Positions 10,279 to 32,629 of a stretch of DNA of 36,593 nucleotides are shown here, piece by piece. The notes under the pieces are model-generated. The model was given only the letters and a program-made list of their open reading frames with translations. It did no database searches and was not told the origin of the DNA. This DNA is from Anaerolineae bacterium (GTDB lineage: Bacteria; Chloroflexota; Anaerolineae; Anaerolineales; RBG-16-64-43). The stretch lies in the NCBI GenBank assembly GCA_041479415.1, contig JBGOXY010000002.1, positions 1 to 36,593 on the forward strand, read 5' to 3'. A program made the position numbers and the translations under genes. Numbering within the stretch: position 1 is the first letter of the stretch; the number at the start of each line of letters is the position of its first letter.

Positions 10279-10304
10279 CCCGCGACGCTGCATACATGAA
10301 TAGA

Positions 10305-10336
10305 AGCGCCGGCCCACCTTCTGGTGGGCCGGCGCT
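10305..10336. terminator. Bidirectional terminator hairpin between convergent genes
   Basis: AGCGCCGGCCCACC (10305-10318), loop TTCT, GGTGGGCCGGCGCT (10323-10336): 14-bp perfect stem, extendable by 1-2 pairs. T-rich flank on the minus strand (TTCTATTC) and TTT on the plus strand. Confidence 0.7.
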
Positions 10337-10359
10337 TTCCATGCAAGCCGGAGTGCGTG

Positions 10360-10581
10360 CTAGAACAGCCCGCGAAGCAAGAGCAAGAAGCCGACAATGA
10401 TCAGCGGGATGCCGATGATCGCACCCACCACGGTGATCGTGAGCACCACCCCCACCACCATCAGCACGAAGCCGAGAATCACCGCCACCAGCCGCCCGGT
10501 GAATCCAAGAATCCACGTGAGCAACTGCCAGATGGCCCAGAACGGCCACAGATACCACGCCACACGCTTGCTGCTCGTCAT
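10360..10581 (-). CDS. Small hydrophobic membrane protein, unknown function
   Basis: 73 aa, almost entirely hydrophobic (2-3 predicted TM segments). Start set at ATG 10581, preceded by AAGGAGG with a 5-nt spacer. It lies 45 nt downstream of the PspC-domain gene on the same strand. Confidence 0.6.
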   Translation of the reverse strand: MTSSKRVAWYLWPFWAIWQLLTWILGFTGRLVAVILGFVLMVVGVVLTITVVGAIIGIPLIIVGFLLLLRGLF

Positions 10582-10626
10582 CCTTGCCTCCTTACCCATC
10601 GCCCCACACGGATCCGGCGCCGCGGG

Positions 10627-10824
10627 TCAAGCGCCAGGAATGATGATCCAACACAAGAGGTACATGGCCAGACCGGGCACGCCGCCTGGGATACAGGCCA
10701 CGAGGAACCCCAAGCGGAACCAGGTCGGGCTGATGCCGAAGAATTCGCCCAGGCCGCCGCACACGCCCGCCAGCACCCGACTTGAGCGGGATCGGCGCAA
10801 TGGCCCCCGAGTCGACTCACTCAT
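10627..10824 (-). CDS. PspC-domain membrane protein
   Basis: RRSRSSRVLAGVCGGLGEFFGISPTWFRLGFLV ... LLCWIIIP matches the PspC-domain signature. Start chosen at ATG 10824 (65 aa, GGGGGA upstream); ATGs at 10836 and 10842 are alternatives. The longer ORF-track N-terminus looks non-coding. Confidence 0.72.
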   Translation of the reverse strand: MSESTRGPLRRSRSSRVLAGVCGGLGEFFGISPTWFRLGFLVACIPGGVPGLAMYLLCWIIIPGA

Positions 10825-11018
10825 TCTATCCCCCATGGACATGTGTTCATCCACAGTGGATATACGCAGGTTAGCCACTCGCAGTTGCCCTTTGCATGGG
10901 TGCCCCATGGCCGCCGCTAAGTCCAGGCAATGCATCGGGGAGCTCGTCCGGCGGGTGCTTGCATGCCCACCCATCCCACCGCTGGTTGAGGGAGCTCCTT
11001 CCGTGCCAAGACTGGCAC

Positions 11019-11048
11019 TTGCGTAATTCTTCACAACTATGCTATAGT
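11019..11048 (+). promoter_or_regulatory. Candidate sigma-70-type promoter TTGCGT-18-TATAGT far upstream of the hdr operon
   Basis: TTGCGT (11019-11024), 18-nt spacer, TATAGT (11043-11048), in the only AT-rich patch of the 11035-11431 gap. It would give a leader of about 375 nt. Confidence 0.3.
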
Positions 11049-11431
11049 CTTCACTATCCGGAGAGGGACCTCACAATTCCGCACCACGGCACTTGCCCCC
11101 GACTCTCTCGGAACTCGCGTGGTTGTTATTGAGCCTTTAGGCCAGGGCTCTCCGCCGCAGTTCCTAGCTTGGATGGACGGGGTTTCATGGCCCGAATTGG
11201 CGTGAACCCATGCCGCCGAACGTGCGGCCATCCGGGTGGCTCCCAGCCACCCCAGGTCAACTGTTGCCTGCCTCCGAATCCTCCCGTCTCCATCCGATTT
11301 CCGGCGAACGCCTCCCATGCGTCTGGCTCGGCCATCCCCTTTGAGCGTGTTGGCCCGCCGGCGCGCCCCTCGATCCCGCCCGCTGCTCGTGGCGGGCCAT
11401 CACCAACACCGCGCACAAGGAGGAGCACCGC

Positions 11432-13468
11432 ATGAGTGCCAACCGTAGCGCAGGCATCTCGCCGGGCGAGTACTCGGCCGCGCCTCCAGGCGAGAAGATT
11501 GGTGTGTACATCTGCCACTGCGGCACCAATATCGCCGCCATGGTGGATGTCGCCGAGGTGGCCGAGTACGCCGGGGCTCTGCAGGGAGTGGCCGTCGCGC
11601 GCCACTACACCTACATGTGCTCCGACCCGGGCCAAGCGATGATCCAGGAGGATATTCGCTCGCTCGGCCTGGACCGGGTGGTGGTGGCCTCCTGCTCGCC
11701 GCTCATGCACGAGCCCACCTTCCGTGCGGCGTGCGCCCAGGCCGGCCTCAACCCGTTTCTCTTTCAGATGACCAACATCCGCGAGCACGTCTCGTGGGTG
11801 AGCGACGACCGTACCAGCGCAACGCAGAAGGCGCTGGCGCTGGTGACCGCGGCGGTGCGCCGGGTGTCGTTGCAGCAGCCGCTCGAGACCCGCCAACTGG
11901 GAGTCACCCAGTCGGCGCTGGTGGTGGGCGGCGGTATCGCCGGCATCGAGGCCGCGCTGCGCCTGGCCGATGCCGGCAAGCGAGTTTACCTGGTAGAGCG
12001 GGAGCCGTCGATCGGCGGCCACATGGCCCAGCTCTACAAGACCTTTCCCACCCTCGACTGTGCGGCTTGAATTCTCACACCCAAGATGGTGTCCGTGGGA
12101 CGCCATGAGAACATCACTCTCCTCAGCTACAGTGAGGTGGAAGCTGTATCCGGTTTCGTGGGGTCGTTCCAGGTGCGCGTGCGCCGCAAGGCGCGCCATG
12201 TGAAAGAAGACCTGTGCACCGGCTGCGGCACGTGCGTGCAGAAGTGCCCCTGGCGCAAGATCCCCTCCGAGTTCGACCTGGGCCTGGACACCCGTCCGGC
12301 GATTTACTTCCCCTTTGGCCAGGCCGTGCCGCGCGTGCCGGTCATTGACACCGAGCACTGTGTCTACTTCGCCAAGGGCACGTGCCGCGCCTGCGCCAAG
12401 TTCTGCCCGCGCGAAGCTATCGACTTCGAACAGACCGACCAGCAGCTCGAGCTCGAGGTGGGCACGATCATCCTGGCTACCGGGTTCCAGAACTACGATC
12501 CACACCGCGACACGCGCTTCGGCTACGGGGAACTTCCGGATGTGGTCACGGGGCCGGAGTTTGAACGCCTGGTGAATTCGGGCGGGCCCACCTTGGGGCG
12601 GGTGTTGCGCGCCGACGGCACCCCGCCGAAGAAGGTGGCCCTCATCCATTGTGTGGGCAGCCGCGGCGACGCACACGAATACTGCTCGCGCGTGTGCTGC
12701 ATGTATTCGCTCAAGCTGGCGCACCTGGTCCACGATGCGACCGGGGCCGAGGTGACCGAGTTCTACCGCGATATGCGCACCTTCGGCAAGGACTACGAAT
12801 CGTTCTACCGCCGCGTGGTTGCGGAGGGCATCCATACCTTCCGCTACGAGGGTGATGTGCAGGTGACCCAGGCCGATGGCCACTTGCGGGTGACTGCCAC
12901 CGACGTGTTCACGGGAAAGCCGGCCGAGATCGAAAGCGACATGGTGATCCTGGCCACCGGCCTCGAGCCGCAGGCCGATCAGCGGCAGGTGGCCCGCCGT
13001 TTCGGAGTGAGCCTCAGCCCGGACGGTTTCTTCATGGAGCGCCACCCCAAGCTAGCGCCGGTGGAAACAGCCAGCGACGGCATCTTCCTGGCCGGCACCT
13101 GCCAGGGGCCCAAGGATATCCCCGACAGCGTCGCCCAAGGGGGCGCCGCGGCGGCGGCCGCGCTCTCGCTGATGGATGCAGGCTACGTCTTTCTCGAGCC
13201 CTTCACGGTGCACGTGCTGGCCGAGCGCTGCAGTGGCTGCCGCACCTGCCAGAACCTGTGCCCCTTCGGCGCGATCCAGATGGCCGAGCACGAGGGACGA
13301 ACGGTCTCCACGATTAATGAAGTGCTGTGCAAGGGCTGCGGCACGTGCGCCGCCGCCTGCCCGGCCGGCGCCATATACCAGAACAACTTCTCCAATGATC
13401 AGGTCATCGCCGAAATCCTCGGGGCGCTGTCGATCGACCGCGCCATTCCTCAGGAGGCCTTCCCATGA
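11432..13468 (+). CDS. hdrA: Heterodisulfide reductase subunit A family flavoprotein with predicted selenocysteine at codon 213 (TGA 12068-12070 read through)
   Basis: ORFs 11432-12070 and 12086-13468 share one frame and are separated only by TGA plus 5 sense codons. The joined protein (678 aa) has the full HdrA layout. N-terminal Cys domain: GVYICHCGTNIAAM. FAD fold: ALVVGGGIAGIEAALRLA. Junction: GGHMAQLYKTFPTLDCAA-U-ILTPKMV. Inserted ferredoxin domain: CTGCGTCVQKCP ... CRACAKFCP. C-terminal 2x[4Fe-4S]: CSGCRTCQNLCP, CKGCGTCAAACP. AAGGAGGAG lies upstream of the ATG. Confidence 0.85.
12068..12106 (+). promoter_or_regulatory. UGA(Sec) recoding site with a SECIS-like hairpin
   Basis: TGA at 12068-12070. 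Hairpin ATGGTGTCC (12086-12094), loop GTG, GGACGCCAT (12098-12106): 9 bp including one G-U wobble. The apical loop begins 25 nt after the UGA and starts with GU, consistent with the bacterial SECIS geometry. Confidence 0.62.
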
Positions 13469-16400
13469 ACCGTTCCTCCCCCCGGACGGGCGTCTATGTC
13501 TGCCAGTGTGGGACCAATATCGCCGCGACGGTGGAGGTGCAGCAGGTAGCCGAGTTCGCGCGCGACCTGCCGGGCGTGGTGGCCGCCCGCAGCTACAGCT
13601 ATATGTGCTCCGAGCCCGGCCAGGCGCTGATCAAGCAAGACATCCAGGACCACGGCCTCAACCGCGTAGTGGTGGCCTCCTGCTCGCCGTTGATGCATGA
13701 GCCCACCTTCCGGCGCGCGTGCACCGAGGCCGGCCTCAACCCGTTCTGCATGCAGATGGCCAACATCCGCGAGCATTGTGCCTGGGTCATCGACGACCGC
13801 CAGCAGGCCACCGCCAAGGCCAAGCATCTGGTGGCGGCCGCGGTTCGCCGAGTGGCGCAGCACCGCCCGTTGGAGATGCGCCAGGTGCATGTGGAGCCAG
13901 CCGCGCTAGTGGTCGGTGCGGGCATCGCCGGCATCGAGGCCGCACTGCGCTTGGCGGAGGCCGGCAAGCAGGTCTATCTGGTGGAGCGTGAGCCGTCGAT
14001 CGGCGGCCACATGGCCCAGCTGTACAAGACCTTTCCCACCCTCGACTGTGCGGCTTGAATACTCACACCCAAAATGGTGTCCGTTGGACGCCAAAAGAAC
14101 ATCAAGCTGCTGAGCTACAGCGAAATCGAATCGGTTTCAGGCTATGTGGGCAACTTCGAGGTGCGCGTGCGGCGCAAGCCGCGCTACATCGACGAGAGCA
14201 AGTGCACTGGCTGCGGCAATTGCGCCAGCGTCTGCCCGATCGAGGTGACCAACGTCTTCGACCTGGGGCTGAGCACGCGCCGGGCGGTGTACCGGCACTC
14301 GCCGCAAGCCGTGCCCGGCGCGTATACGATTGAGAAGCGCGGCATCGCCCCATGCCGCAATGCCTGCCCAACGGATCAGCGCGCCCAGGGCTACATCGCC
14401 CTGGTTCGTCAGGGGCGGTTCGCCGATGCCTACTGGGCCATCCGCCGCGAGCATCCCTTCCCCTCGGTGTGCGGACGCGTCTGCAATCATCGCTGCGAAG
14501 ATGCATGCACCCGGGGCAGCTACGACCAACCGGTCAACATCATGGCCCTCAAGCGTTTTGTCGCGGATTGGGCCTTCGACCATCGCGACCAGCTCCCGGC
14601 CCAACGCGCCAAGTCACTCACCGGCACGCCCTTCGCCGCGCACCCCACCGCGAGCGGCAAGAAAATCGCGATCATTGGTGCCGGGCCCGCTGGGCTGACC
14701 ACCGCCCTCGACCTGGTGCGCCTCGGCCACCAGACCACGGTGTTCGATTCGCTGCCGGTGGCCGGCGGCATGATGCGCGTGGGCATCCCGCCCCATCGCA
14801 TGCCGGTGGAACTCCTCGAGTGGGAGATTCAGCAGATCCTGGATGAGGGCGTGCAACTTCGCCTGAACACGTGGGTGGACGACATCCCGGCGCTGCTCGA
14901 CCAGGGCTACCATGCGGTGCTCATCGCCACCGGTGCCCATCAAGCCAAGAAGATTCCCATCCGCAACTCGAACCATCCCGACAACTGGCTCAGCCTGAAC
15001 CTGCTGCGGCGCGTGGCGCAGGGCGAGGCGATCGACCTGCGCGAGCGCAGCGTGATCGTGATGGGCGGCGGTAACGTGGCCCTCGACACGGCGCGCACGG
15101 TGGTGCGCCTGGGGGCCCGCCAAGTGAGCATGGTGTGCCTCGAGCCGCGCGGCGAGATGCCCGGCTTCGCCTGGGAAGTGGAGGTGGCCGAGCAGGAGGG
15201 TATCCATGTCCTGCCCGCGCGAACCTTTAAGGAAGTGGTGGTCAAGGGCAACCGCATCGCCGGGCTGCGCTGCGCCGAGGTTGTCTTCCGTGGCTTCAAG
15301 CGCGGGCGGCCCGATATCAGCGAGATTCCCGGCACCGAGCACGTTGTGCCCGGCGATCTGGTGATCTGGGCCATCGGGCAAGGGCCGGACTTCTCCTTCC
15401 TGCCCGGCGACGGCAGCATCAACACGTGTTATCCGGTGGGTATCCAGACCAACAGCGAGATGATGACCACCACCCCGGGCGTGTTCTGCGCGGGCGATGT
15501 GCGCCGCGGGCAAACCTTCTTTGTGGTCGACGCCATTGGCGAGGGCCACCACGCTGCGCGTTGCATCGACCGTTATCTACGCGGCGAGCAGGGCGTGCGC
15601 GAACCGCATCGGCCGCCGGTGGTGGAACTGCGCCGCGAGGAGATCGAGCACAAAGTGGAGTTGGGCGAAGCCGCGCGCCGTCCGCGCGCGGTCATCCGCA
15701 ACATCGGCGTGGAAGCGCGCCGGCTCAACTTCCGCGAAGTGGATCTCACGCTGACCGAAGCCGAGGCGGTGGCCGAGGCCGAGCGCTGCCTGCGCTGCGG
15801 AATATGCTCCGAGTGTCTGGAGTGCGTCTCGGCCTGCGAGCGAGGGGCGATCAACCACGACATGCAGCCCGAGATCTTGGATCTCAAGGTGGGCACGTTG
15901 GTGCTGGCCACCGGCTTCCGCGATTTCGACCCGCGGGTGGCTCCCGAGCTGGGCCATGGGCGCCTGGCGAATGTGCTGAGCGCCATGGAGTTTGAGCGGC
16001 TGATCAACACCGGCGGCCCGACGCTGGGCAAGGTGCTGCTCGCCAACGGCCAGCCGCCCAAGCGGGTGGCCATCGTGCACTGCGTGGGCAGCCGCGACGA
16101 CCGCTACCACGAGTATTGCTCGCGCGCCTGTTGCATGTACTCGCTCAAGATCGCCCAACTGGCACACGAGTACCTGCAGGCGGAAGTGTTCGAGATCTAC
16201 CGCGACATGCGCTCCTTCGGCAAAGGCTACGAGGAGTTCTACAACCGCACCCGCGCGAGCGGCGTTCACTTCTTCCACGGCCGGGTGCGCGAGGTGACGG
16301 CGGTTGATGGTCACTTGCGCGTGCAGTGGGAAGAGAGTTTCCACAACGAGCCCGACCAGGTGGACGTGGACCTGGTGATTCTCGCCACGGGCATGGAACC

Positions 16401-16887
16401 GCAGGGCGATACGGCACGCATGGCGAAGCTGTTCGGTCTCTCACGCAGCCGGGATGGGTTCTTCCTCGAGCGCCATCCGAAGCTCGCCCCGGTGGAGACC
16501 TCCTCGCAGGGCATCTTCCTGGCCGGAGCCTGCCAGAGTCCCAAAGACATCCCCGACACGGTGGCGCAGGCTGCCGCAGCAGCGGCTGGCGCGCTGGCGC
16601 TTATCGACCAGCACACCATCAGCCTGGATCCCTCCATTGCCGAGGTGGAGGTAGCGCGCTGCCTGGGCTGCGGCCAGTGTGCAGCCGCCTGCCCATATGG
16701 AGCCATTGAACTGGCGCGCGGCAAGGCCGCGGTCAACGCCTACTTGTGCAAGGGCTGCGGCACGTGCGCCGGGGCGTGCCCGAACAAGGCCATGAGCCTC
16801 ATCCATTTCGACGACCGCCAGTTGATTGCCGAACTGGACGGCGCCCTGGCGTGGATCGATGCCGCCGAAGAGGTGGGCCATGTATGA
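13465..16887 (+). CDS. HdrL-type giant HdrA paralog: HdrA with an inserted NfnB/GltD-like NAD(P)H:FAD oxidoreductase module, predicted selenocysteine at codon 198 (TGA 14056-14058)
   Basis: ORFs 13465-14058 and 14074-16887 are in one frame and join to 1140 aa. The N-terminus parallels hdrA (GVYVCQCGTNIAAT ... FPTLDCAA-U-ILTPKMV). After the first ferredoxin half-motif (CTGCGNCASVCP) comes a glutamate-synthase-small-subunit-like block. That block shows CRNACP, CGRVCNHRCEDAC, KKIAIIGAGPAGLTTALDL, VIVMGGGNVALDTA and GVFCAGDV. The HdrA fold then resumes (CLRCGICSECLECVSAC ... LATGF ... CLGCGQCAAACP, CKGCGTCAGACP). ATGA overlap with hdrA; AGGAGG upstream. Confidence 0.85.
14056..14093 (+). promoter_or_regulatory. 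UGA(Sec) recoding site with a SECIS-like hairpin (paralogous copy)
   Basis: TGA at 14056-14058. Hairpin TGGTGTCC (14075-14082), loop GTT, GGACGCCA (14086-14093). Same UGA-to-loop spacing (25 nt) as the first copy. Confidence 0.62.
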
Positions 16888-17368
16888 ACCCAAGGTGATC
16901 GGATTCCTGTGTACCTGGTGCAGCTACACCGGCGCCGACTCGGCCGGCACCTCGCGCCTGAAGACCCCATGGAACCTGCGTGCCGTGCGCGTGCCGTGCT
17001 CCGGGCGCGTGGCGCCGGAGCTCATCCTGCGTGCCTTCGACCAAGGGGCCGACGGCGTGCTGGTGCTCGGCTGCCACATCGGCGAATGCCACTACGACAG
17101 CGGCAACCATCGCGCCGCCAAGCGCATCCCGCTGCTCCTCTCCATCCTGGAGTTTGCCGGGATGCAGCCCGAGCGGCTGCGTTTGGATTGGGTGTCGGCC
17201 TCGGAGGGTGATCGCTACGCGCGGATCGTGAGCGAGTTTGTCGACGCGCTGCGCCCACTCGGGCCAAACACCTGGCGCATCAACGGCGCCGCCCCAAGGG
17301 CCGACGCGGCGATCGGCATGCCGCTGCCGGCGGCGTCGGGGCTGAGCGGAGGCGCGCCATGTCCATAA
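16880..17368 (+). CDS. MvhD / FlxD-like [2Fe-2S] electron-transfer subunit (methyl-viologen-reducing hydrogenase delta family)
   Basis: MYEPKVIGFLCTWCSYTGADSAG ... VRVPCSGRV ... DGVLVLGCHIGECHY is the MvhD signature. Start set at ATG 16880, which overlaps the upstream stop (ATGTATGA). Confidence 0.86.
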   Translation: MYEPKVIGFLCTWCSYTGADSAGTSRLKTPWNLRAVRVPCSGRVAPELILRAFDQGADGVLVLGCHIGECHYDSGNHRAAKRIPLLLSILEFAGMQPERLRLDWVSASEGDRYARIVSEFVDALRPLGPNTWRINGAAPRADAAIGMPLPAASGLSGGAPCP

Positions 17369-18252
17369 GCGAAGCCATGCAATCCGCGGCGCGCGATGTG
17401 CTGGCCTCCGGCCAGGTGCAACGGGTCATCGGCTACGAGACCGGCCCGCACGGCCGCGTTCGCCCGGCGATCATCGACCGGCCGGAGGAGGCCGAGCGCC
17501 TGGTGTGGAGCGCGGACTGCACACATAACCTGACTGTCTACCTGCACCGCGCCTTGACCGGCGAGAACGGCCGTGCCTCGCGCGAGGCCGTGGCTCCGCC
17601 GGCGCGCGTCGCCATCGTCGTCAAGCCGTGCGACAGCCGCGCGATCAACGTGCTGCTCGCCGAGCATCAGTTCTCACGCGAGCAGGTCTTCGCGATCGGC
17701 ATGGCCTGCGAGGGGATGCGCCAGGGCGCGCCGGCCAGTGCGCCGGAGGCGACGTTGCAGGCACGCTGCCTGCGCTGCCGCGAGCGGGTGCCGGTGGTCC
17801 ACGATGTACTGCTCGGCGAGCCGCCGAGCGCGTTGCCAGAGGCGCTGCCGGACGAGGCGCTGGCGCACGTGCGCGACCTGCCGCCGGCCGAGCGGGCCGC
17901 CTTCTGGCTCAGCCAGTTTGACCGGTGCATTCGCTGCTACGCCTGCCGCCAGGCCTGCCCGATGTGCAATTGCCCGACCTGTCTCTTCGAACAAGAGGAT
18001 GCACTGTGGGTGGGCATGCGCATCGCGCCCTCCGAGAAGCGCACCTTCCACTTGGGGCGTGCGCTGCACCTCGCCGGGCGCTGCGTCGGCTGCAACGAGT
18101 GCGAACGCGTGTGCCCGATGGGCATTCCGATTGGGTTGCTCAACCGCCATCTGGCGGAGACCGTCGAGAGCCTGTACGGTCATCGGGCCGGGATGCAGCC
18201 GGTGCTCTCACCGGTGACGGGCATGCTCAGCGCGGAGGAGAGTGCCCCATGA
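17359..18252 (+). CDS. Fe-S subunit, FlxC-like (HydB/AsrA-related, 2x[4Fe-4S] motifs)
   Basis: 297 aa with VKPCDSRAINVLL, CIRCYACRQACPMCNCPTC and CVGCNECERVCP. Size and motifs match FlxC of FlxABCD-type clusters. No CCG motif, so it is not HdrB. Overlaps the mvhD-like gene by 10 nt. Confidence 0.72.
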   Translation: MSISEAMQSAARDVLASGQVQRVIGYETGPHGRVRPAIIDRPEEAERLVWSADCTHNLTVYLHRALTGENGRASREAVAPPARVAIVVKPCDSRAINVLLAEHQFSREQVFAIGMACEGMRQGAPASAPEATLQARCLRCRERVPVVHDVLLGEPPSALPEALPDEALAHVRDLPPAERAAFWLSQFDRCIRCYACRQACPMCNCPTCLFEQEDALWVGMRIAPSEKRTFHLGRALHLAGRCVGCNECERVCPMGIPIGLLNRHLAETVESLYGHRAGMQPVLSPVTGMLSAEESAP

Positions 18253-19247
18253 AGACTCTCTCGCGAGAGAATCTCAACCTCTGGCTGGATGGGCTGGCGG
18301 CGCAGCACGCGCTCATCGCCCCGCACCTCGAGGCGCCGGGCGTGTTCTATCGTCCGGTGCAGCGCGCCCAGGAGATTGCATGGGAGGCAGGCCGCCCGGT
18401 GCTCTCGGCCAAGGAATTCCTCTTTCCCCCCAGCGAACGACTGCTCAAGGTGGAGAAGCGCGGGCCGGACGTCCGTCTGGAGGCCAGCCCTTCCGCCGCG
18501 CCGCAAGTGATCTTTGGCTTGCGCCCGTGCGATGCGCGCGGCATCCGCGTGTTGGACACGGCCTTCGTCGATACACCGCCGATTGACTCCCGGTATGCGA
18601 GCCGCCGTGAGAACACGCTGCTCGTGGGGCTGGCCTGTCGCAGCATGGGCGCCTCCTGCTTCTGTACCGCCGTGGGCCTGGCACCGGATGACCCGCGCGA
18701 CATGGACGTGATGTTCAGCGATCGCGGGGCGACGCTGGCCGTGCAGGCCCTGACTCCGCGCGGCGAGGCGCTCATCGCCAACCTGCCGCTCGTCGAAGAG
18801 CTAGGGGAGGTGGAGCCCGCCTCGCGGCGAGAGGTGGGCGGCCTGCCAACGGCCGAGGCATGGAAAGAGAGTTACAGTGACGCGCGGTGGGCAAAGCACG
18901 GCGAGCGCTGCCTGAGCTGCCGCCTGTGCGCTTACGTCTGCCCCACCTGCCGCTGTTACGACGTACGCGATGAGGCGTTGCCCTCCCCGCCGGGCGAGGC
19001 ACACTTCGAGCGGTTGCGCGCATGGGATAGCTGCATGCGCGAAGGCTACCGGCTCACAGCCGGCGGGCACAACCCGCGCGCGGCTTCAGGCAGCCGCCTG
19101 CGCAACCGGCTGCTGTGCAAGTTCGTCTACTACCCGCATCAGTATGGCCCTGCCGCCTGCACCGGTTGCGGTCGCTGCCTCGACGCATGCCCGGTCAACC
19201 TCGACCTGCTCGAGATCGGCGGCGCGCTTCAGGAGGCTGCCCAATGA
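18249..19247 (+). CDS. Fe-S subunit, FlxB-like (sulfhydrogenase beta / AsrA-like)
   Basis: 332 aa with FGLRPCDARGIRVLD, CFCTAVG, CLSCRLCAYVCPTCRCYD and CTGCGRCLDACPVNLD. Start set at ATG 18249 (ATGA overlap) rather than the ORF-track 17925. Confidence 0.76.
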   Translation: MKTLSRENLNLWLDGLAAQHALIAPHLEAPGVFYRPVQRAQEIAWEAGRPVLSAKEFLFPPSERLLKVEKRGPDVRLEASPSAAPQVIFGLRPCDARGIRVLDTAFVDTPPIDSRYASRRENTLLVGLACRSMGASCFCTAVGLAPDDPRDMDVMFSDRGATLAVQALTPRGEALIANLPLVEELGEVEPASRREVGGLPTAEAWKESYSDARWAKHGERCLSCRLCAYVCPTCRCYDVRDEALPSPPGEAHFERLRAWDSCMREGYRLTAGGHNPRAASGSRLRNRLLCKFVYYPHQYGPAACTGCGRCLDACPVNLDLLEIGGALQEAAQ

Positions 19248-20089
19248 GCACAGCCGACGGCGCCGATCCGATGTATCCACTCCTGGGGCGATTGGTTTCC
19301 AGCCGCGACATGGGGCGCGAGATCAAACTGCTTGGAGTGAAGCTGCTCAATGGAACACAGCCCCGCTTTCCGGCTTACGCGCCGGGTCAGTTCGCCTTCC
19401 TTTCGGCGTTCGGAATCGGCGAGGCGCCCTTCGGGCTGGCCTCCACCACCGAACGAGGCGAAGTGCTCGAGTTCGCCGTGCAGCGCCTGGGGTCCGTGAC
19501 GACCGGCCTGCACGAGCTGGCCGAGGGCGATGCGCTGGGGGTGCGCGGCCCCCTGGGCAACACCTTCCCGATGGAGGCCTTCCAGCACAAGAACCTGCTC
19601 GTGCTCGGCGGCGGCATCGGCGGCGCGCCGTTGCGCCCGGTGATTCACAGCGTACTCGACCACCGCCAGGATTATGGTCAATTGACCATTCTGTGGGCAG
19701 CGCGCCATCCCTCGCTGCTCATATTCCGCGACGAATACGAAAGCTGGCGCGCCGCGCCGCACACCGAACTACACCTGACCGTGGATGAGGCGGATGCCGC
19801 GTGGGATCATCACGTGGGCTTGATGACGGATCTCGTGCGGCAGGTGGCGCCCTCGGCCGCCAACACCGTCGCCATCACCTGTGGGCCGCCGATCATGATC
19901 TATCACGTCGACAAGCTGCTCAGCGAACTCGGCTTCGCGCCCGAGCAGCGCTACGTCACGCTCGAGGCGCGCATGCACTGCGGCCTGGGCAAGTGCGGAC
20001 GATGCAATATGGGCGAGCTCTTGGTGTGCCGCGACGGGCCGGTCTTCTCCATGGCCCAGGTCGGCAATTTCTTGGAGAGTTACTTGTAG
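19244..20089 (+). CDS. FAD/NAD(P)H-binding oxidoreductase with C-terminal [2Fe-2S], FlxA-like (sulfhydrogenase gamma / AsrB / PyrK family)
   Basis: 281 aa. Ferredoxin-reductase-type fold (PGQFAFL, LLVLGGGIGGAPLRP, ITCGPPIM) and a C-terminal CGLGKCGRCNMGELLVC. Start at ATG 19244 (ATGA overlap, AGGAGG at 19231-19236). Confidence 0.84.
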   Translation: MSTADGADPMYPLLGRLVSSRDMGREIKLLGVKLLNGTQPRFPAYAPGQFAFLSAFGIGEAPFGLASTTERGEVLEFAVQRLGSVTTGLHELAEGDALGVRGPLGNTFPMEAFQHKNLLVLGGGIGGAPLRPVIHSVLDHRQDYGQLTILWAARHPSLLIFRDEYESWRAAPHTELHLTVDEADAAWDHHVGLMTDLVRQVAPSAANTVAITCGPPIMIYHVDKLLSELGFAPEQRYVTLEARMHCGLGKCGRCNMGELLVCRDGPVFSMAQVGNFLESYL

Positions 20090-20125: not shown

Positions 20126-20155
20126 TATGCGGGTCGCCATCTGGCGACCCGCATA
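20126..20155. terminator. Hairpin between the convergent hdr/flx operon and the histidine kinase gene
   Basis: TATGCGGGTCGCC (20126-20138), loop ATCT, GGCGACCCGCATA (20143-20155): 13-bp perfect stem. No clear U-tract on either strand. Confidence 0.5.
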
Positions 20156-30707: not shown

Positions 30708-31253
30708 ATGAGCCAGCCCACGCCTTCCACCTCACCCGGCGGCACCCCGGCTTATCGTGAACTGCTGACAAGCTCGTTGTTGATGGGTCTGGGGGGCTGG
30801 GCGCTCATTGCCGCGCTCGTCTTTCTCGTCACGCCCACCCTCGGCCCGCGCTGGGCGTTCTTCTTCGCGCTCTTCATCGCCCTGGTGGGCACCTCCATTC
30901 CGCTGCTGTGGTACCTCAATCGCCGTTTCTCGCCCGATCCATTCCCGAGCCCAGGCGTGCTATGGCGCGAGGCCGTGGAAGTCGGCGTCTGGGGGTTGTT
31001 CCTTGTTTGGCTACGCGTCGGGCGCCTGCTCACCCCCTTTGCCGCATGGACGCTGACCGGCGCTGTCTTCGCCGTGGAGCTCCTGCTGCGCCTGTATGAG
31101 CGCAGCCGATGGGCGCCATCGACCTCTTTGCCTTCGCCCGCGGCCCCTGTGGAAGCAACGCCCCCGGCCGAGGCGGCCGAGCCGCCGACGGCATCGCTCG
31201 TCACGCCACCTTTCATCGACGATGAGTTGGATTCGGACGATTCGCCCGCATGA
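30708..31253 (+). CDS. Membrane protein of unknown function (4 TM segments, acidic Pro-rich tail)
   Basis: 181 aa with hydrophobic segments and a C-terminal PPFIDDELDSDDSPA. Its stop overlaps the selA start (ATGA). Confidence 0.62.
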   Translation: MSQPTPSTSPGGTPAYRELLTSSLLMGLGGWALIAALVFLVTPTLGPRWAFFFALFIALVGTSIPLLWYLNRRFSPDPFPSPGVLWREAVEVGVWGLFLVWLRVGRLLTPFAAWTLTGAVFAVELLLRLYERSRWAPSTSLPSPAAPVEATPPAEAAEPPTASLVTPPFIDDELDSDDSPA

Positions 31254-32629
31254 GCCTGCGCGAGCTTCCCTCGGTTGATGTGCTTCTGCAGCAGCCCCAC
31301 ACGCGCCGCCTGACCGAGGCCTACGGGCGCGATCTCACCCTGGATGCGTTGCGCAGCGCGCTGCAAGGCGCGCGGGATGCCGTACGCGCCGGGCAACCCG
31401 TTCCTTCGGCCGAGGTGCTCCTCGAAAGCGCACAACGGAACCTGGCCGAGTGGACCGCTCCCAGCCTGGTGCCGGTGATTAATGCCACCGGCGTCATCCT
31501 GCACACCAACCTCGGCCGCGCGCCGCTCAGCGCCTCCGCCCTGCGCGCCATGCAGCAGGTGGCACAGGGCTACGCCACCCTCGAATACGACCTGCCCTCC
31601 GGCCAGCGGGGCACGCGCACGGTGCACGCCGAACGTTTGCTCACCCGCCTCACCGGCGCTGAAGCCGCACTGGTCGTCAACAACAACGCCGGCGCTGTGC
31701 TGCTCGCGCTCACCGCCCTCGCCAAGGGGCGCGAGGTGATCATTGCCCGCTCGCAGCTGGTCGAGGTTGGCGGGGGGTTCCGCATCCCGGATGTCATGCG
31801 CCAGTCGGGCGCGCGCCTGGTCGAGGTTGGTACAAGCAATCGCACGCACCCGGCCGACTTCAAAGAAGCACTCGGCGCGCGCACAGCAATGCTGCTGCGT
31901 GCGCACCATTCGAACTTCCGCCTGGTCGGGTTCACGAGTGAGCCGACACTGGCCGAGATGGCGGACGTGGCGGCGGCCCATCAGGTGCCTGTGGTGGACG
32001 ACCTGGGCTCGGGTGCGCTACTCGATACCGCAGCCTTCGGATTGGGCCACGAACCCATGGTCCAGGAATCGCTCGCGGCGGGCGCAGCGCTGGTGATGTT
32101 CTCGGGCGATAAACTGCTGGGCGGCCCGCAAGCCGGAATCCTGGTCGGGCACGAGGTGTTGATGGCACGCCTGCGCAAGCATCCGCTAGCGCGCGCGCTG
32201 CGCGCAGACAAGCTGTGCCTGGCGGCGCTGGAAGCCACGCTGCTCCACTATGCCCGCGGTGAGGCCCTTCAGGCGCTGCCCGTGTGGCAGATGATCGCCG
32301 CGCCGCTCACCACGCTGCGCGTGCGCGCCGAGCGCTGGGCGGCCGAGCTCGGACAGGGGCAGGCGATCGAGAGCCGCTCCACCGTGGGCGGCGGCAGCCT
32401 GCCCGAAGAAACGCTGCCCACCTGGGCGCTGGCCCTCTCGCTGCCCAAGCCGCAGACGGTGCTCGCGCGCCTTCGCCAGGCGAGCCCGCCGATCATCGCC
32501 CGCGTGGAGGAGCAGCGCGTGCTGCTCGACCCGCGCACTGTCTTGCCGGATCAGGATGAGATGCTCCTGCGCCAGCTGGCCGAGGCGCTTGCGGCCTCCG
32601 CTACCACACAGAAAGGGAAGGCGTCATGA
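31250..32629 (+). CDS. selA: L-seryl-tRNA(Sec) selenium transferase
   Basis: 459 aa with INATGVILHTNLGRAPLS, LEYDL..G.RG.R, NNNAGAVLLAL, LVEVGGGFRIPDV, and the PLP-lysine motif FSGDKLLGGPQAGI. Confidence 0.92.
   Translation: MSLRELPSVDVLLQQPHTRRLTEAYGRDLTLDALRSALQGARDAVRAGQPVPSAEVLLESAQRNLAEWTAPSLVPVINATGVILHTNLGRAPLSASALRAMQQVAQGYATLEYDLPSGQRGTRTVHAERLLTRLTGAEAALVVNNNAGAVLLALTALAKGREVIIARSQLVEVGGGFRIPDVMRQSGARLVEVGTSNRTHPADFKEALGARTAMLLRAHHSNFRLVGFTSEPTLAEMADVAAAHQVPVVDDLGSGALLDTAAFGLGHEPMVQESLAAGAALVMFSGDKLLGGPQAGILVGHEVLMARLRKHPLARALRADKLCLAALEATLLHYARGEALQALPVWQMIAAPLTTLRVRAERWAAELGQGQAIESRSTVGGGSLPEETLPTWALALSLPKPQTVLARLRQASPPIIARVEEQRVLLDPRTVLPDQDEMLLRQLAEALAASATTQKGKAS

What the first reader, a model, noticed from the sequence alone, without database searches (positions are those of the whole stretch)
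13465..16887. Second Sec-containing HdrA is a 1140-aa HdrL-type fusion with an NfnB/GltD-like NAD(P)H module inserted in the ferredoxin domain
ORFs 13465-14058 and 14074-16887 are also in one frame with a TGA at the identical motif position (codon 198).

In hdrA the two half-motifs of the inserted ferredoxin domain (CTGCGxC..CP and C..C..C...CP) are about 45 residues apart. Here roughly 480 residues (about nt 14335-15780) sit between them.

The insert carries glutamate-synthase-small-subunit / NfnB / SudA-like signatures. These are two Cys clusters (CRNACP, CGRVCNHRCEDAC) and two Rossmann dinucleotide folds (IIGAGPAGL, VMGGGNVALD).

The result is a covalent fusion of a putative bifurcating HdrA flavoprotein with an NAD(P)H-oxidising module, and it also appears to carry selenium. 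As far as I recall, HdrL-type proteins are known only from genome annotation (e.g. Desulfobacterium autotrophicum) and have not been characterised biochemically.
Basis: partly seen in the sequence, partly recalled or inferred. Interest (0 to 1): 0.8.

Follow-up and report, generated by a model that had tools for sequence, protein, structure and literature searches.

The report
Selenium-containing HdrL fusion flavoprotein gene

Summary
Window 13465-16887 is a single reading frame with one in-frame TGA (14056-14058, codon 198). Pfam places a GltD/NfnB-type module (Fer4_20 plus Pyr_redox_2) inside the inserted ferredoxin domain of an otherwise complete HdrA.

The TGA is almost certainly selenocysteine:
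- Full-length orthologues carry Cys at that position.
- It aligns with Cys197/Sec197 of solved HdrA.
- A hairpin 16 nt downstream is frozen at synonymous sites in 33 distinct TGA-type genes and lost in the Cys-type genes.
- selA lies in the same window.

Three details are new here:
- The insert is circularly permuted relative to NfnB/GltD. Its first two cluster cysteines (RCLRC) come after the flavin domains and abut the second ferredoxin motif.
- The insert is closest to the non-bifurcating NADPH-input module of StnC/NfnABC, sharing its Lys cluster ligand.
- The gene sits in a tight operon, hdrA(Sec)-hdrL(Sec)-mvhD-FeS-sulfhydrogenase beta/gamma-like, with no hdrBC. The operon is conserved in Anaerolineae MAGs.

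The architecture itself is published as HdrL (2009), as ANME-1 HdrA9-11 (2022) and as "type III HdrA" (2025). This is therefore a new member of a known, biochemically uncharacterised kind.

The parts
13465..16887 (+). hdrL coding sequence, 1140 residues including one Sec (HdrA scaffold plus inserted NAD(P)H module)
   Evidence: Single frame. Pfam domains. With the insert deleted it aligns end to end with solved HdrA, E about 1e-213. Full-length Cys orthologues P0002/P0003.
14056..14058 (+). UGA codon 198, read as selenocysteine (equivalent to Cys197 of 5ODC HdrA and Sec197 of M. maripaludis HdrA)
   Evidence: Cys at this column in P0002/P0003. Aligns to C197 of 5odc_A. TGA present in 33 distinct related gene segments. 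Literature: PMC9012536, PMC13518236.
14075..14093 (+). SECIS-like hairpin UGGUGUCC-GUU-GGACGCCA, starting 16 nt after the UGA
   Evidence: MFE hairpin with z -2.2 to -2.8. Stem codons are invariant or nearly so at synonymous sites (TCC, GGA and CGC 33/33; GTG 32/33), while the loop and flanks vary. The two Cys-type genes use other codons and lose the stem.
13465..13869 (+). HdrA N-terminal Fe-S domain (about residues 1-135; Cys13, 15, 48, 73 and others)
   Evidence: Aligns to residues 3-135 of 5odc_A. 70% identical to the window's hdrA.
14203..14238 (+). First half of the inserted ferredoxin domain (C247-x2-C250-x2-C253-x3-C257-P)
   Evidence: Pfam Fer4 at 241-260. Aligned with the HdrA ferredoxin motif.
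14317..15804 (+). Inserted, circularly permuted GltD/NfnA(Bfu)-type NAD(P)H:Fe-S module (residues 285-780)
   Evidence: Boundaries from BLASTP against hdrA. PDB sequence hits: 9bov_A 4.5e-86, 9n5u_A 1.9e-76, 8oh5_C 6.8e-68, 4ylf_B 6.6e-58. NCBIfam PRK12771 4e-141, measured on orthologue P0002.
14347..14583 (+). Fer4_20 core (profile positions 30-111): PC297xxxC301P, C336/340/344/348 and Lys363
   Evidence: Pfam match starts at profile position 30. Lys363 aligns with StnC K170, which is Glu in NfnB.
14662..15546 (+). FAD and NAD(P)H Rossmann domains of the insert (GAGPAG 405-410; GGGNVA 534-539; beta2 end CLEPR with Glu560)
   Evidence: Pfam Pyr_redox_2 at 400-694. Comparison of the beta2 motif across homologues.
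15718..15801 (+). Displaced 'N-terminal' segment of the GltD Fe-S domain (RRLNFREV...RC775LRC778G)
   Evidence: Alone it hits Fer4_20 profile positions 2-36 (E 4e-4). Moved back in front of residue 293, it gives one Fer4_20 hit over positions 2-111 at 102.9 bits, against 86.7 bits for the native order. It aligns to residues 9-42 of NfnB 4ylf_B.
15805..15837 (+). Second half of the inserted ferredoxin domain (C781-x2-C784-x2-C787-x3-C791)
   Evidence: Aligns with the second ferredoxin motif of hdrA and of solved HdrA.
15838..16635 (+). Second part of the thioredoxin-reductase-like FAD domain, with the C873..C885xxxCC cluster motif, Glu844 and Lys895
   Evidence: Aligns with 5odc_A. Lys895 = K409 and Glu844 = E356, counted on the alignment. 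The role of these residues is taken from PMC12054007.
16636..16794 (+). C-terminal 2x[4Fe-4S] ferredoxin domain
   Evidence: Pfam Fer4_7/Fer4_10 at 1058-1110.
11432..13468 (+). Paralogous hdrA (678 residues, Sec at codon 213 = TGA 12068-12070, hairpin 12087-12105). Its stop overlaps the hdrL start.
16880..17368 (+). mvhD/flxD-like [2Fe-2S] protein; its start overlaps the hdrL stop
   Evidence: Pfam FlpD 8e-48. Coordinates.
17359..18252 (+). Fe-S protein resembling the C-terminal ferredoxin part of FdhB (FlxC-like)
   Evidence: Pfam Fer4_8. PDB 8rvu_E/7bkb_E FdhB C-terminus, 5e-24.
18249..19247 (+). Sulfhydrogenase beta / AsrA-like Fe-S protein (FlxB-like)
   Evidence: Pfam Fer4_22. 9nez_B 3e-45. 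NCBIfam ShyB/AsrA, measured on the orthologue.
19244..20089 (+). Sulfhydrogenase gamma / AsrB / PyrK-like FAD-[2Fe-2S]-NAD(P)H protein (FlxA-like; also an NfnA homologue)
   Evidence: Pfam NAD_binding_1 plus DHODB_Fe-S_bind. 9nez_C 1e-45 and 4ylf_A 1e-13.
20126..20155 (.). Perfect 14-bp inverted repeat; probable terminator closing the operon
31250..32629 (+). selA (selenocysteine synthase): Sec machinery in the same genome fragment
   Evidence: Pfam SelA 6e-131.

Best explanation
The locus encodes a selenocysteine-containing HdrL, also called 'type III HdrA'.

Shown:
- A complete HdrA bifurcating-flavoprotein scaffold is present. It has the N-terminal Fe-S domain, the thioredoxin-reductase-like FAD domain with the CxxxCC cluster, the Lys409 and Glu356 equivalents, and the C-terminal di-cluster ferredoxin domain.
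- Its inserted ferredoxin domain is split by a 496-residue NAD(P)H-binding module of the GltD superfamily, carrying FAD and two [4Fe-4S] clusters.
- The module is the circularly permuted form that also occurs in StnC and in the NfnA subunit of NfnABC. The chain enters at PCxxxCP, runs through the flavin and nucleotide domains, then returns with the RCLxC segment directly in front of the second ferredoxin motif. Both ends of the insert therefore sit at the ferredoxin domain.
- UGA198 is decoded as Sec with the help of a hairpin 16 nt downstream.

Inferred:
- The four clusters of the split ferredoxin domain and the GltD module form a wire between a pyridine-nucleotide site and the HdrA flavin. 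The branch that reduces free ferredoxin in classical HdrA is thereby coupled to NAD(P)(H).
- Glu560 in place of the Arg-Arg pair suggests the nucleotide is NADH.
- The module's FAD is a simple two-electron entry or exit point, not a second bifurcation site.
- HdrL works with the co-translated HdrA paralogue, probably as a heterodimer that shares the Sec-ligated N-terminal clusters. It also works with an MvhD-FeS-sulfhydrogenase beta/gamma-like (Flx-type) NAD(P)H module. Together they would form a soluble flavin-based electron-bifurcating or confurcating complex.
For: - Domain map.
- Insert boundaries.
- Permutation: (Fer4_20 positions 30-111 at residues 295-373, positions 2-36 at residues 752-790; the re-permuted construct scores 102.9 against 86.7 bits). 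One search aligns NfnB residues 9-42 to the C-terminal end of the insert. The same PC-before-RCLxC order is seen in most of the 150 representatives and in the solved StnC/NfnA chains.
- Lys363 equals StnC K170. The ligand position is Lys in 108/108 close homologues and 67/71 representatives where the motif could be matched.
- StnC/NfnA FAD is shown to be non-bifurcating in PMC10482914 and PMC12018979.
- Sec: plus selA.
- Operon with overlapping stops and starts. It is conserved in Anaerolineae loci.
- Partner identities.
- Beta2 Glu motif CLEPR in nearly all close homologues, against YRR in NADPH-type relatives.
- Fold search on the model gives HdrA chains first, then NfnABC/StnC, then NfnI.
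Against: - No experiment exists for any HdrL.
- The AlphaFold2 model was poor (mean pLDDT 59.9, pTM 0.36). Cluster-to-cluster distances and the closure of the permuted Fe-S domain could not be checked.
- Nucleotide preference is ambiguous. The glycine motif is GxGxxA, which PMC12054007 reads as NADPH-type, whereas loss of the Arg-Arg pair and gain of Glu560 point to NADH.
- No hdrBC or other CCG-domain gene lies in the window or in 21 of 22 related loci. The high-potential acceptor is therefore unknown.
- The HdrA/HdrL heterodimer rests only on conserved tandem, translationally coupled genes. Both paralogues keep the N-terminal domain and Sec, so homodimers are equally possible.
Confidence: 0.8

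Rival explanations
1. HdrA, HdrL and the Flx-like proteins form a self-contained NADH/NADPH/ferredoxin transhydrogenase, an Hdr-based functional analogue of Nfn and Stn. One pyridine-nucleotide site would be on the FlxA-like subunit and the other on the HdrL insert. Ferredoxin would be served by the still-free inserted ferredoxin domain of the HdrA paralogue. No disulfide substrate would be involved.
For: - The operon has two separate NAD(P)H-type sites plus one unobstructed HdrA ferredoxin domain, and no hdrBC/CCG gene in the window or in 21 of 22 related loci.
- The insert has a Glu-type (NADH-like) beta2 end.
- The FlxA-like subunit is closest to the gamma subunit of P. furiosus sulfhydrogenase I. 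From my own knowledge, that enzyme is NADP(H)-dependent.
- The insert's nearest solved relatives are subunits of transhydrogenases.
Against: - This is purely an argument from gene content.
- hdrBC/hdrD may be encoded elsewhere in the genome.
- In L019 a related HdrL is followed by an HdrD-like Fer4_8 plus 2xCCG protein.
- The Flx module in Desulfovibrio is linked to HdrABC/DsrC (Ramos 2015, cited in PMC4759654).
- Neither nucleotide preference is established.
Confidence: 0.15
2. The inserted module is a true NfnB equivalent whose FAD bifurcates. HdrL would then carry two bifurcation sites, as suggested for ANME-1 HdrA9-11 in PMC9012536. The FlxA-like protein would act as the NfnA-type partner.
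For: - Clear homology to NfnB: 4ylf_B 6.6e-58 and 5jca_L 4.5e-56.
- The Arg equivalent to NfnB R201 is present (Arg445).
- The FlxA-like protein is an NfnA homologue (4ylf_A 1e-13).
Against: - The cluster next to the FAD has Lys363, not the Glu of bifurcating NfnB.
- The closest solved relatives, which share the same permuted topology, are StnC and NfnA(Bfu). Their FAD was shown not to bifurcate (PMC10482914, PMC12018979).
- The FlxA-like protein matches sulfhydrogenase gamma far better than it matches NfnA (1e-45 against 1e-13).
Confidence: 0.1
3. The TGA is a genuine stop. Two separate proteins would be made, of 197 aa and 937 aa starting at Met203. This is how public gene callers annotate almost all relatives.
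For: - 118 of the 120 nearest database clusters are recorded as proteins of about 897-961 aa that begin at or just after that Met.
- An ATG lies five codons after the TGA.
Against: - The split would cut the FAD-binding fold of HdrA.
- Orthologues with Cys are uninterrupted.
- The position equals the Sec197 seen in the cryo-EM map of M. maripaludis HdrA (PMC13518236).
- A hairpin is conserved at synonymous sites only in TGA-type genes.
- selA is nearby.
- The 'start' Met is part of the conserved ILTPKM motif, which is also present in the Cys forms.
Confidence: 0.03

Closest known systems
HdrL of Desulfobacterium autotrophicum HRM2 (HdrL1-3; Strittmatter et al. 2009, PMC2702500)
   Same: - A large HdrA / glutamate-synthase-type fusion with an extra NADH-binding site.
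- HdrL1 and HdrL3 contain Sec.
- Followed by mvhD.
- One tandem hdrL/hdrA locus.
- Proposed NADH-linked electron cycling.
   Different: - The window's gene comes from an Anaerolineales (Chloroflexota) MAG, not a sulfate reducer.
- Its partners are Flx-like (sulfhydrogenase beta/gamma-like) genes rather than dsrABC or fdh.
- Sequence relationship to the D. autotrophicum proteins was not measured here, because they were not retrieved.
'Type III HdrA' / ANME-1 HdrA9-11 (PMC12054007, 2025; PMC9012536, 2022)
   Same: [quoted passage not shown]
- The rest of the scaffold is like type I HdrA1.
- NAD(P)H is proposed to be wired to the bifurcating FAD.
- No biochemistry has been done.
   Different: - Those proteins are archaeal, and only nine sequences were reported.
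- One of those gene clusters (Bathyarchaeota) contains mvhADG.
- They are described as GxGxxG (NADH-type), whereas the window has GxGxxA plus Glu560.
- Sec and the circular permutation are not mentioned in the passages read.
StnC of Sporomusa ovata StnABC (8OH5) and NfnA of NfnABC (9BOV, 9N5U)
   Same: - Best solved matches to the insert (E 4.5e-86 to 6.8e-68).
- Same permuted order: PCxxxCP, then flavin domains, then RNFxEV..RCLxC.
- Same Lys ligand (K170 equivalent).
- In those enzymes the module is a non-bifurcating NADPH input.
   Different: - There the module is fused to NuoG/Fdh-like domains and feeds a HydBC-type FMN bifurcation site; here it is embedded in HdrA.
- Those proteins have the YRR NADPH motif, whereas the window has CLEPR.
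NfnB/NfnL of NfnAB (4YLF_B, 5JCA_L) and GltD
   Same: - Same superfamily: two [4Fe-4S] clusters, FAD and NAD(P)H.
- About 30-32% identity in the Foldseek alignments of orthologue P0002's model.
   Different: - Canonical (non-permuted) order.
- Glu instead of Lys as cluster ligand.
- The FAD bifurcates.
- A separate subunit that pairs with NfnA.
HdrA of methanogens (5ODC; M. maripaludis Sec197, PMC13518236)
   Same: - With the insert removed the protein aligns end to end (E 1e-213).
- Sec/Cys at position 197, K409 and E356 are all conserved.
   Different: - Methanogen HdrA has an intact inserted ferredoxin domain that reduces free ferredoxin.
- It works with HdrBC on CoM-S-S-CoB.
FlxABCD-HdrABC of Desulfovibrio vulgaris (Ramos et al. 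2015, as cited in PMC4759654)
   Same: An MvhD-like protein, Fe-S proteins and a FAD/NAD(P)H protein are encoded next to hdrA.
   Different: - No hdrB or hdrC here.
- Gene order is reversed.
- An extra HdrL is present.
- FlxB/FlxC identity was inferred from sulfhydrogenase and FdhB similarity, not from comparison with the D. vulgaris proteins.

Membership tests
HdrA (bifurcating heterodisulfide reductase flavoprotein) | Thioredoxin-reductase-like FAD domain aligning over its full length with solved HdrA | tested here: met
   Insert-deleted HdrL aligns residues 5-638 to residues 3-649 of 5odc_A, E 4e-213. NCBIfam HdrA/HdrA2 models hit in two stretches on orthologue P0002.
HdrA (bifurcating heterodisulfide reductase flavoprotein) | Residues at the bifurcating FAD: Lys409 and Glu356 (5ODC numbering; roles from PMC12054007) | tested here: met
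   Lys895 in CCMYSLK aligns with K409. Glu844 in MEFER aligns with E356 (counted on the alignment).
HdrA (bifurcating heterodisulfide reductase flavoprotein) | [4Fe-4S] motif CxGSR...CxxxCC next to the FAD, N-terminal cluster domain, and C-terminal 2x[4Fe-4S] domain | tested here: met
   HCVGSRDDRYHEYCSRACC at 872-890. N-terminal cysteines aligned. Fer4_7 at 1058-1110.
HdrA (bifurcating heterodisulfide reductase flavoprotein) | Association with HdrB/HdrC (CCG-domain disulfide reductase subunits) | tested here: not met
   No CCG motif in any ORF of the window or of 21 of 22 related loci. Only L019 has an HdrD-like gene nearby. The rest of the genome could not be searched.
HdrL / type III HdrA | GltD/NfnB-like NAD(P)H module inserted within the inserted ferredoxin domain of HdrA | tested here: met
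   Fer4_20 plus Pyr_redox_2 lie between the two ferredoxin half-motifs. This matches the descriptions in PMC9012536 and PMC12054007.
HdrL / type III HdrA | mvhD gene directly downstream (Strittmatter 2009) | tested here: met
   FlpD protein at 16880-17368, overlapping the hdrL stop.
NfnB/NfnL (bifurcating subunit of NfnAB) | Canonical order of the Fe-S domain (RCLxC immediately before PCxxxCP at the N-terminus) | tested here: not met
   RCLRC lies 478 residues after PC297. The Fer4_20 profile is split into positions 30-111 and 2-36.
NfnB/NfnL (bifurcating subunit of NfnAB) | Glu ligand on the [4Fe-4S] cluster proximal to the bifurcating FAD | tested here: not met
   Lys363 aligns with that Glu (LERF in 4ylf_B and 5jca_L against LKRF here).
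StnC / NfnA(Bfu)-type permuted GltD module | Permuted order plus a Lys cluster ligand (StnC K170) | tested here: met
   Contiguous alignment to 8oh5_C residues 102-573, including RNxSF..RCLECG. Lys363 equals K170.
StnC / NfnA(Bfu)-type permuted GltD module | Arg-Arg (YRR) NADPH 2'-phosphate motif after beta2 | tested here: not met
   The window and nearly all close homologues have CLEPR/CLESR. YRR occurs in other HdrL-type representatives.
Bacterial selenoprotein gene | In-frame UGA aligned with Cys in orthologues | tested here: met
   P0002/P0003 have DCAACILTPKM. L001 has TGT/TGC at that codon.
Bacterial selenoprotein gene | Stem-loop (bacterial SECIS) shortly downstream of the UGA, under selection | tested here: met
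   An 8-bp stem starts 16 nt after the UGA. Synonymous sites are frozen in the stem only, across 33 distinct sequences, and the stem is lost in the Cys forms. Rfam has no matching family in the window.
Bacterial selenoprotein gene | Sec machinery (selA, selB, selC, selD) in the genome | tested here: inconclusive
   selA is present at 31250-32629. No tRNA is found in the window. selB, selC and selD are not in the window, and the genome was not searchable.
FlxABCD-HdrABC | FlxA (FAD/NAD(P)H/[2Fe-2S]), FlxB and FlxC (Fe-S), FlxD (MvhD-like), together with HdrABC | tested here: inconclusive
   MvhD-like, two Fe-S proteins and a PyrK/HydG-like protein are present. HdrBC is absent. No direct comparison with the D. 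vulgaris Flx proteins was made.

The most novel reading that the evidence does not exclude
The six-gene operon hdrA-hdrL-mvhD-FeS-shyB-like-shyC-like, which lacks any disulfide-reducing HdrBC, encodes a third, Hdr-based class of electron-bifurcating NADH/NADPH/ferredoxin transhydrogenase. An HdrA/HdrL heterodimer would use selenocysteine-ligated bridging clusters. The permuted GltD insert would serve as the NAD(H) terminal, and the Flx-like module as the NADP(H) terminal.
Probability: 0.15. Interest if true: 0.7.

Novelty: new member of a known kind. Interest (0 to 1): 0.35.

Why it matters
HdrL/type III HdrA proteins are widespread. About 100 of the 150 best 50%-identity representatives matched the whole query, flanks included, and the six of those checked with Pfam (P0121, P0125, P0129, P0133, P0154, P0166) all had an HdrA-type scaffold. 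They are abundant in the proteomes of some anaerobes, yet none has been characterised.

This Anaerolineae version is a compact, apparently self-contained operon. It has natural all-Cys orthologues (P0002, and the hdrA next to it, in GCA_019873735.1) that could be expressed without the Sec machinery. That makes it a practical route to testing what an NAD(P)H module wired into the ferredoxin branch of HdrA does.

Two further points are of practical use:
- The permutation and the Lys ligand tie the module to non-bifurcating Stn/NfnABC input modules. This predicts a single bifurcation site, not two.
- 118 of the 120 nearest database clusters are mis-called as truncated proteins because the UGA-Sec codon is read as a stop.

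Tried and rejected
- **Rfam, E-value mode, whole window.** No SECIS or other relevant family. The only hits were weak chance matches; the PtaRNA1 'hit' at 10302-10368 is a GC-rich hairpin.
- **tRNA scan.** No tRNA-Sec in the window.
- **AlphaFold2 of full-length orthologue P0002 with a 29-row alignment.** Mean pLDDT 59.9 and pTM 0.36, with all cluster-binding loops below 50. No coordinates are available, so cofactor spacing could not be assessed. The Foldseek search on this model only reproduces the sequence-level result: HdrA first, then NfnABC/StnC, then NfnI.
- **Frameshift between mvhD and the next Fe-S gene.** These are fused in other Anaerolineae, so a frameshift or assembly error was considered. 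It was rejected because the window, L005 and L006 share the same two overlapping ORFs with no indel at the junction.
- **Possibility that the best insert homologues (for example P0121) were StnC-like rather than HdrL.** Rejected, because Pfam shows an HdrA-type N-terminal Rossmann fold and a C-terminal ferredoxin domain.
- **Pereira et al. 2011.** Could not be retrieved.
- **Literature search for 'circular permutation' together with NfnB or glutamate synthase.** No paper holding both was found. This covers the held library only and is not proof of novelty.
- **First regex for the NAD(P)H motif.** It failed and was redone.

Full report
**1. Observation**

Translating window 13465-16887 gives 1140 codons plus the terminal stop. 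There is a single internal stop at codon 198, in the motif FPTLDCAA*ILTPKM. By direct reading that TGA is at 14056-14058. The gene immediately upstream (11432-13468) is a conventional hdrA with the identical motif and a TGA at 12068-12070.

Pfam on the joined protein places Fer4_20 at residues 295-373 (E 4e-21) and Pyr_redox_2 at residues 400-694 (E 9e-43). These lie after a ferredoxin half-motif at 241-260. HdrA-type FAD signatures sit at 147-185 and a C-terminal di-cluster ferredoxin domain at 1058-1110.

BLASTP of the window's hdrA against hdrL aligns HdrL 7-284 (70% identity) and 784-1134 (55%). About 499 residues therefore replace 17 residues of HdrA. With the insert deleted in silico, HdrL aligns end to end with solved HdrA chains: residues 5-638 to residues 3-649 of 5odc_A, E 4e-213.

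**2. The UGA is selenocysteine**

- The two full-length relatives in the protein database (P0002 and P0003, Anaerolineales, 68-70% identical) have Cys exactly at this position, in DCAACILTPKM.
- On the alignment to 5odc_A the codon corresponds to Cys197. In the solved enzyme that residue is a ligand, donated by the partner subunit, of the N-terminal [4Fe-4S] cluster (PMC9012536). It is Sec197 in the M. maripaludis cryo-EM structure (PMC13518236).
- Sixteen nucleotides after both UGAs lies the hairpin UGGUGUCC-GUN-GGACGCCA.
- I collected 22 related loci and found 33 distinct TGA-type segments. In these the stem codons are invariant or nearly so: GTG 32/33, and TCC, GGA and CGC 33/33. Third positions in the five codons before the stem, in the loop codon and after the stem vary freely.
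- The two Cys-type genes encode the same peptide with different codons and lose the stem. One variant (L016) changes a U.G pair to C-G.
- selA lies at 31250-32629 in the same window.
- 118 of the 120 nearest database clusters start at or just after the Met that follows the UGA. The Sec form is therefore the rule in this clade, and it is routinely mis-annotated as a truncated protein.

**3. Anatomy of the insert**

The insert belongs to the GltD superfamily but is not a plain NfnB copy. phmmer against the PDB aligns residues 46-463 of NfnB 4ylf_B to the front of the insert. Residues 9-42 of NfnB (..RRNFEEV..EAQRCLQC) instead align to the segment RRLNFREV..AERCLRC at HdrL 752-778, which comes after the flavin domains.

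- Pfam's Fer4_20 match at 295-373 starts at profile position 30.
- The isolated segment 741-800 hits profile positions 2-36.
- An artificial re-permuted sequence (741-779 placed in front of 293-712) gives one hit over positions 2-111 at 102.9 bits, against 86.7 bits for the native order.

The polypeptide therefore leaves the first ferredoxin half-motif (C247/250/253/257) and enters the GltD Fe-S domain at PC297xxxC301P. It passes through the FAD (GAGPAG 405-410) and NAD(P)H (GGGNVA 534-539) folds, then returns with C775xxC778. It continues after only two residues into the second ferredoxin motif, C781xxC784xxC787xxxC791.

The same order is found in:
- the solved StnC (8oh5_C) and the NfnABC NfnA chains (9bov_A, 9n5u_A), which are the best PDB matches (E 4.5e-86 to 6.8e-68, against 6.6e-58 for NfnB);
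- most of the 150 best 50%-identity representatives, wherever both motifs could be located;
- stand-alone proteins of 500-560 aa.

The non-cysteine ligand of the cluster next to the FAD is Lys363. It aligns with StnC K170, whereas NfnB has Glu there. Where the motif could be matched, this position is Lys in 108/108 close homologues and 67/71 representatives. In StnABC and NfnABC this module's FAD was shown experimentally to be a non-bifurcating NADPH entry point (PMC10482914, PMC12018979).

At the end of beta2 of the nucleotide fold, the window and nearly all Anaerolineae relatives have CLEPR (Glu560). StnC, NfnB and many other HdrL-type proteins have YRR there. By the classical Rossmann rule this suggests NADH. 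The GxGxxA glycine motif points the other way, so the preference remains open.

**4. Context**

The genes hdrA, hdrL, mvhD (16880-17368), an FdhB-C-terminus-like Fe-S protein (17359-18252), a sulfhydrogenase-beta/AsrA-like protein (18249-19247) and a sulfhydrogenase-gamma/AsrB/PyrK-like FAD-NAD(P)H protein (19244-20089) all overlap stop to start. They are followed by a perfect 14-bp inverted repeat at 20126-20155.

- The hdrA-hdrL tandem recurs in every related Chloroflexota locus long enough to show it. The full gene set through the sulfhydrogenase-gamma-like gene was confirmed in L001-L004.
- The window is about 97% identical to MAGs 'Anaerolineales bacterium SMAG_U8225' and 'Chloroflexi bacterium RBG_16_64_43'.
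- No CCG-domain (HdrB/HdrD) ORF is present in the window or in 21 of 22 loci.
- Known variants: mvhD fused to the Fe-S gene (L001, L003); hdrL-hdrA-hdrL (L003); and, in L019, a second hdrL without the N-terminal domain followed by an HdrD-like protein.

**5. Mechanism**

Shown:
- A complete HdrA scaffold with the FAD-site residues (Lys895 = K409, Glu844 = E356), the CxxxCC cluster motif, and the N- and C-terminal cluster domains.
- An NAD(P)H/FAD/2x[4Fe-4S] module whose two ends both lie at the inserted ferredoxin domain.
- Sec at the inter-subunit cluster-ligand position.

Inferred:
- The clusters of the split ferredoxin domain and of the GltD module connect a pyridine-nucleotide site to the HdrA flavin. 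They do so along the branch that reduces free ferredoxin in classical HdrA.
- The insert FAD is a simple hydride/one-electron converter, not a second bifurcating flavin.
- HdrL pairs with the co-translated HdrA, whose ferredoxin domain is still free.
- The MvhD-FeS-beta/gamma-like module supplies or removes electrons at a second NAD(P)H site.

The operon offers two nucleotide sites and one ferredoxin site but no disulfide reductase. A transhydrogenase-like reaction is therefore the most novel reading still open; I give it about 15%. An unlinked HdrBC/HdrD/DsrC-type partner is the conservative alternative.

The AlphaFold2 model of orthologue P0002 was too poor to test cofactor spacing (pLDDT 59.9, pTM 0.36). 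The fold search only confirmed the two parent folds.

**6. Comparison with what is known, and novelty**

- HdrL was defined in 2009 as a heterodisulfide reductase/glutamate synthase fusion. Two Sec-containing members, a downstream mvhD and one hdrL/hdrA tandem were already reported then (PMC2702500).
- It is abundant in S. fumaroxidans under sulfate reduction (PMC5947623). A similar large HdrA is induced in D. reducens (PMC4759654).
[quoted passage not shown] 45% identity to NfnB' (PMC9012536).
- It was formalised as 'type III HdrA' with predicted structures in 2025, with the explicit statement that no biochemistry exists (PMC12054007).
- The representative search shows the architecture is widespread and modular. 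Forms occur with or without the N-terminal domain, with doubled HdrA, and with fused MvhD.

The finding is therefore a correct identification of a new member of a known, uncharacterised kind. What this analysis adds is the permuted topology and Lys ligand that link the insert to non-bifurcating Stn/NfnABC modules, a well-supported SECIS, and the conserved Anaerolineae operon without hdrBC. The held literature showed no mention of the permutation, but that is weak evidence of novelty.

**7. Verdict**

Interest is moderate to low (0.35). The gene is ordinary for specialists in anaerobic energy metabolism. It is nonetheless a good experimental handle on an open question, especially through the all-Cys orthologues.

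Noticed in passing
window 10279-11431: About 1.15 kb with no convincing gene lies between the alpha-amylase gene (8665-10278) and hdrA. A GC-rich hairpin at 10302-10337 (weak Rfam PtaRNA1 hit) looks like the amylase terminator. No sigma-70-like promoter was found.
   Followed up: partly
window 16880-18252; L001 11402-12760; L003 10802-12151: mvhD and the following FdhB-C-terminus-like Fe-S gene are two overlapping ORFs in the window, L005 and L006, with no indel at the junction. In other Anaerolineae they form one fused gene of 449-452 aa.
   Followed up: yes
L003 1772-10805 (and L004): Anaerolineaceae MAG GCA_009772985.1 carries three tandem genes, hdrL-hdrA-hdrL. All three have the UGA and the same hairpin.
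   Followed up: partly
L019 30-7930: In Chloroflexota MAG193 the Sec-type hdrL is followed by three genes: a second hdrL-type gene without the N-terminal domain (1091 aa), an HdrD-like Fer4_8 plus 2xCCG protein (426 aa), and another hdrA N-terminus. This is the only related locus with a disulfide-reductase-type partner.
   Followed up: partly
window 31250-32629 (and 30708-31253): selA is encoded about 14 kb downstream of the two selenoprotein genes. The 181-aa ORF just upstream of it, whose stop overlaps the selA start, has no Pfam match.
   Followed up: no
protein database hits P0001-P0120: 118 of the 120 nearest clusters are recorded as proteins of about 897-961 aa that start at or just after the Met following the UGA. 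Sources name them 'heterodisulfide reductase subunit A' or 'FAD-dependent oxidoreductase'. This is systematic mis-annotation of a selenoprotein as a truncated gene.
   Followed up: yes
representatives P0121-P0270 (NAD(P)H fold, beta2 end): HdrL-type and stand-alone permuted GltD modules fall into two classes. One has YRR(S/T)xxEMPA, like the NADPH-binding StnC and NfnB. The other has CLE(P/S)RxxMP, with Glu. This suggests a repeated switch of nucleotide preference within the family.
   Followed up: partly
L016 about 5977-6040: One hdrL has a variant hairpin ACGGCGUCC..GGACGCC. The U.G pair of the stem has become C-G and the terminal U-A pair is lost. The peptide changes from KMV to KTA.
   Followed up: no
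window 20126-20155: A perfect 14-bp inverted repeat lies between the end of the operon and the convergent GAF-histidine kinase gene (20185-22071). It is a likely bidirectional terminator.
   Followed up: partly
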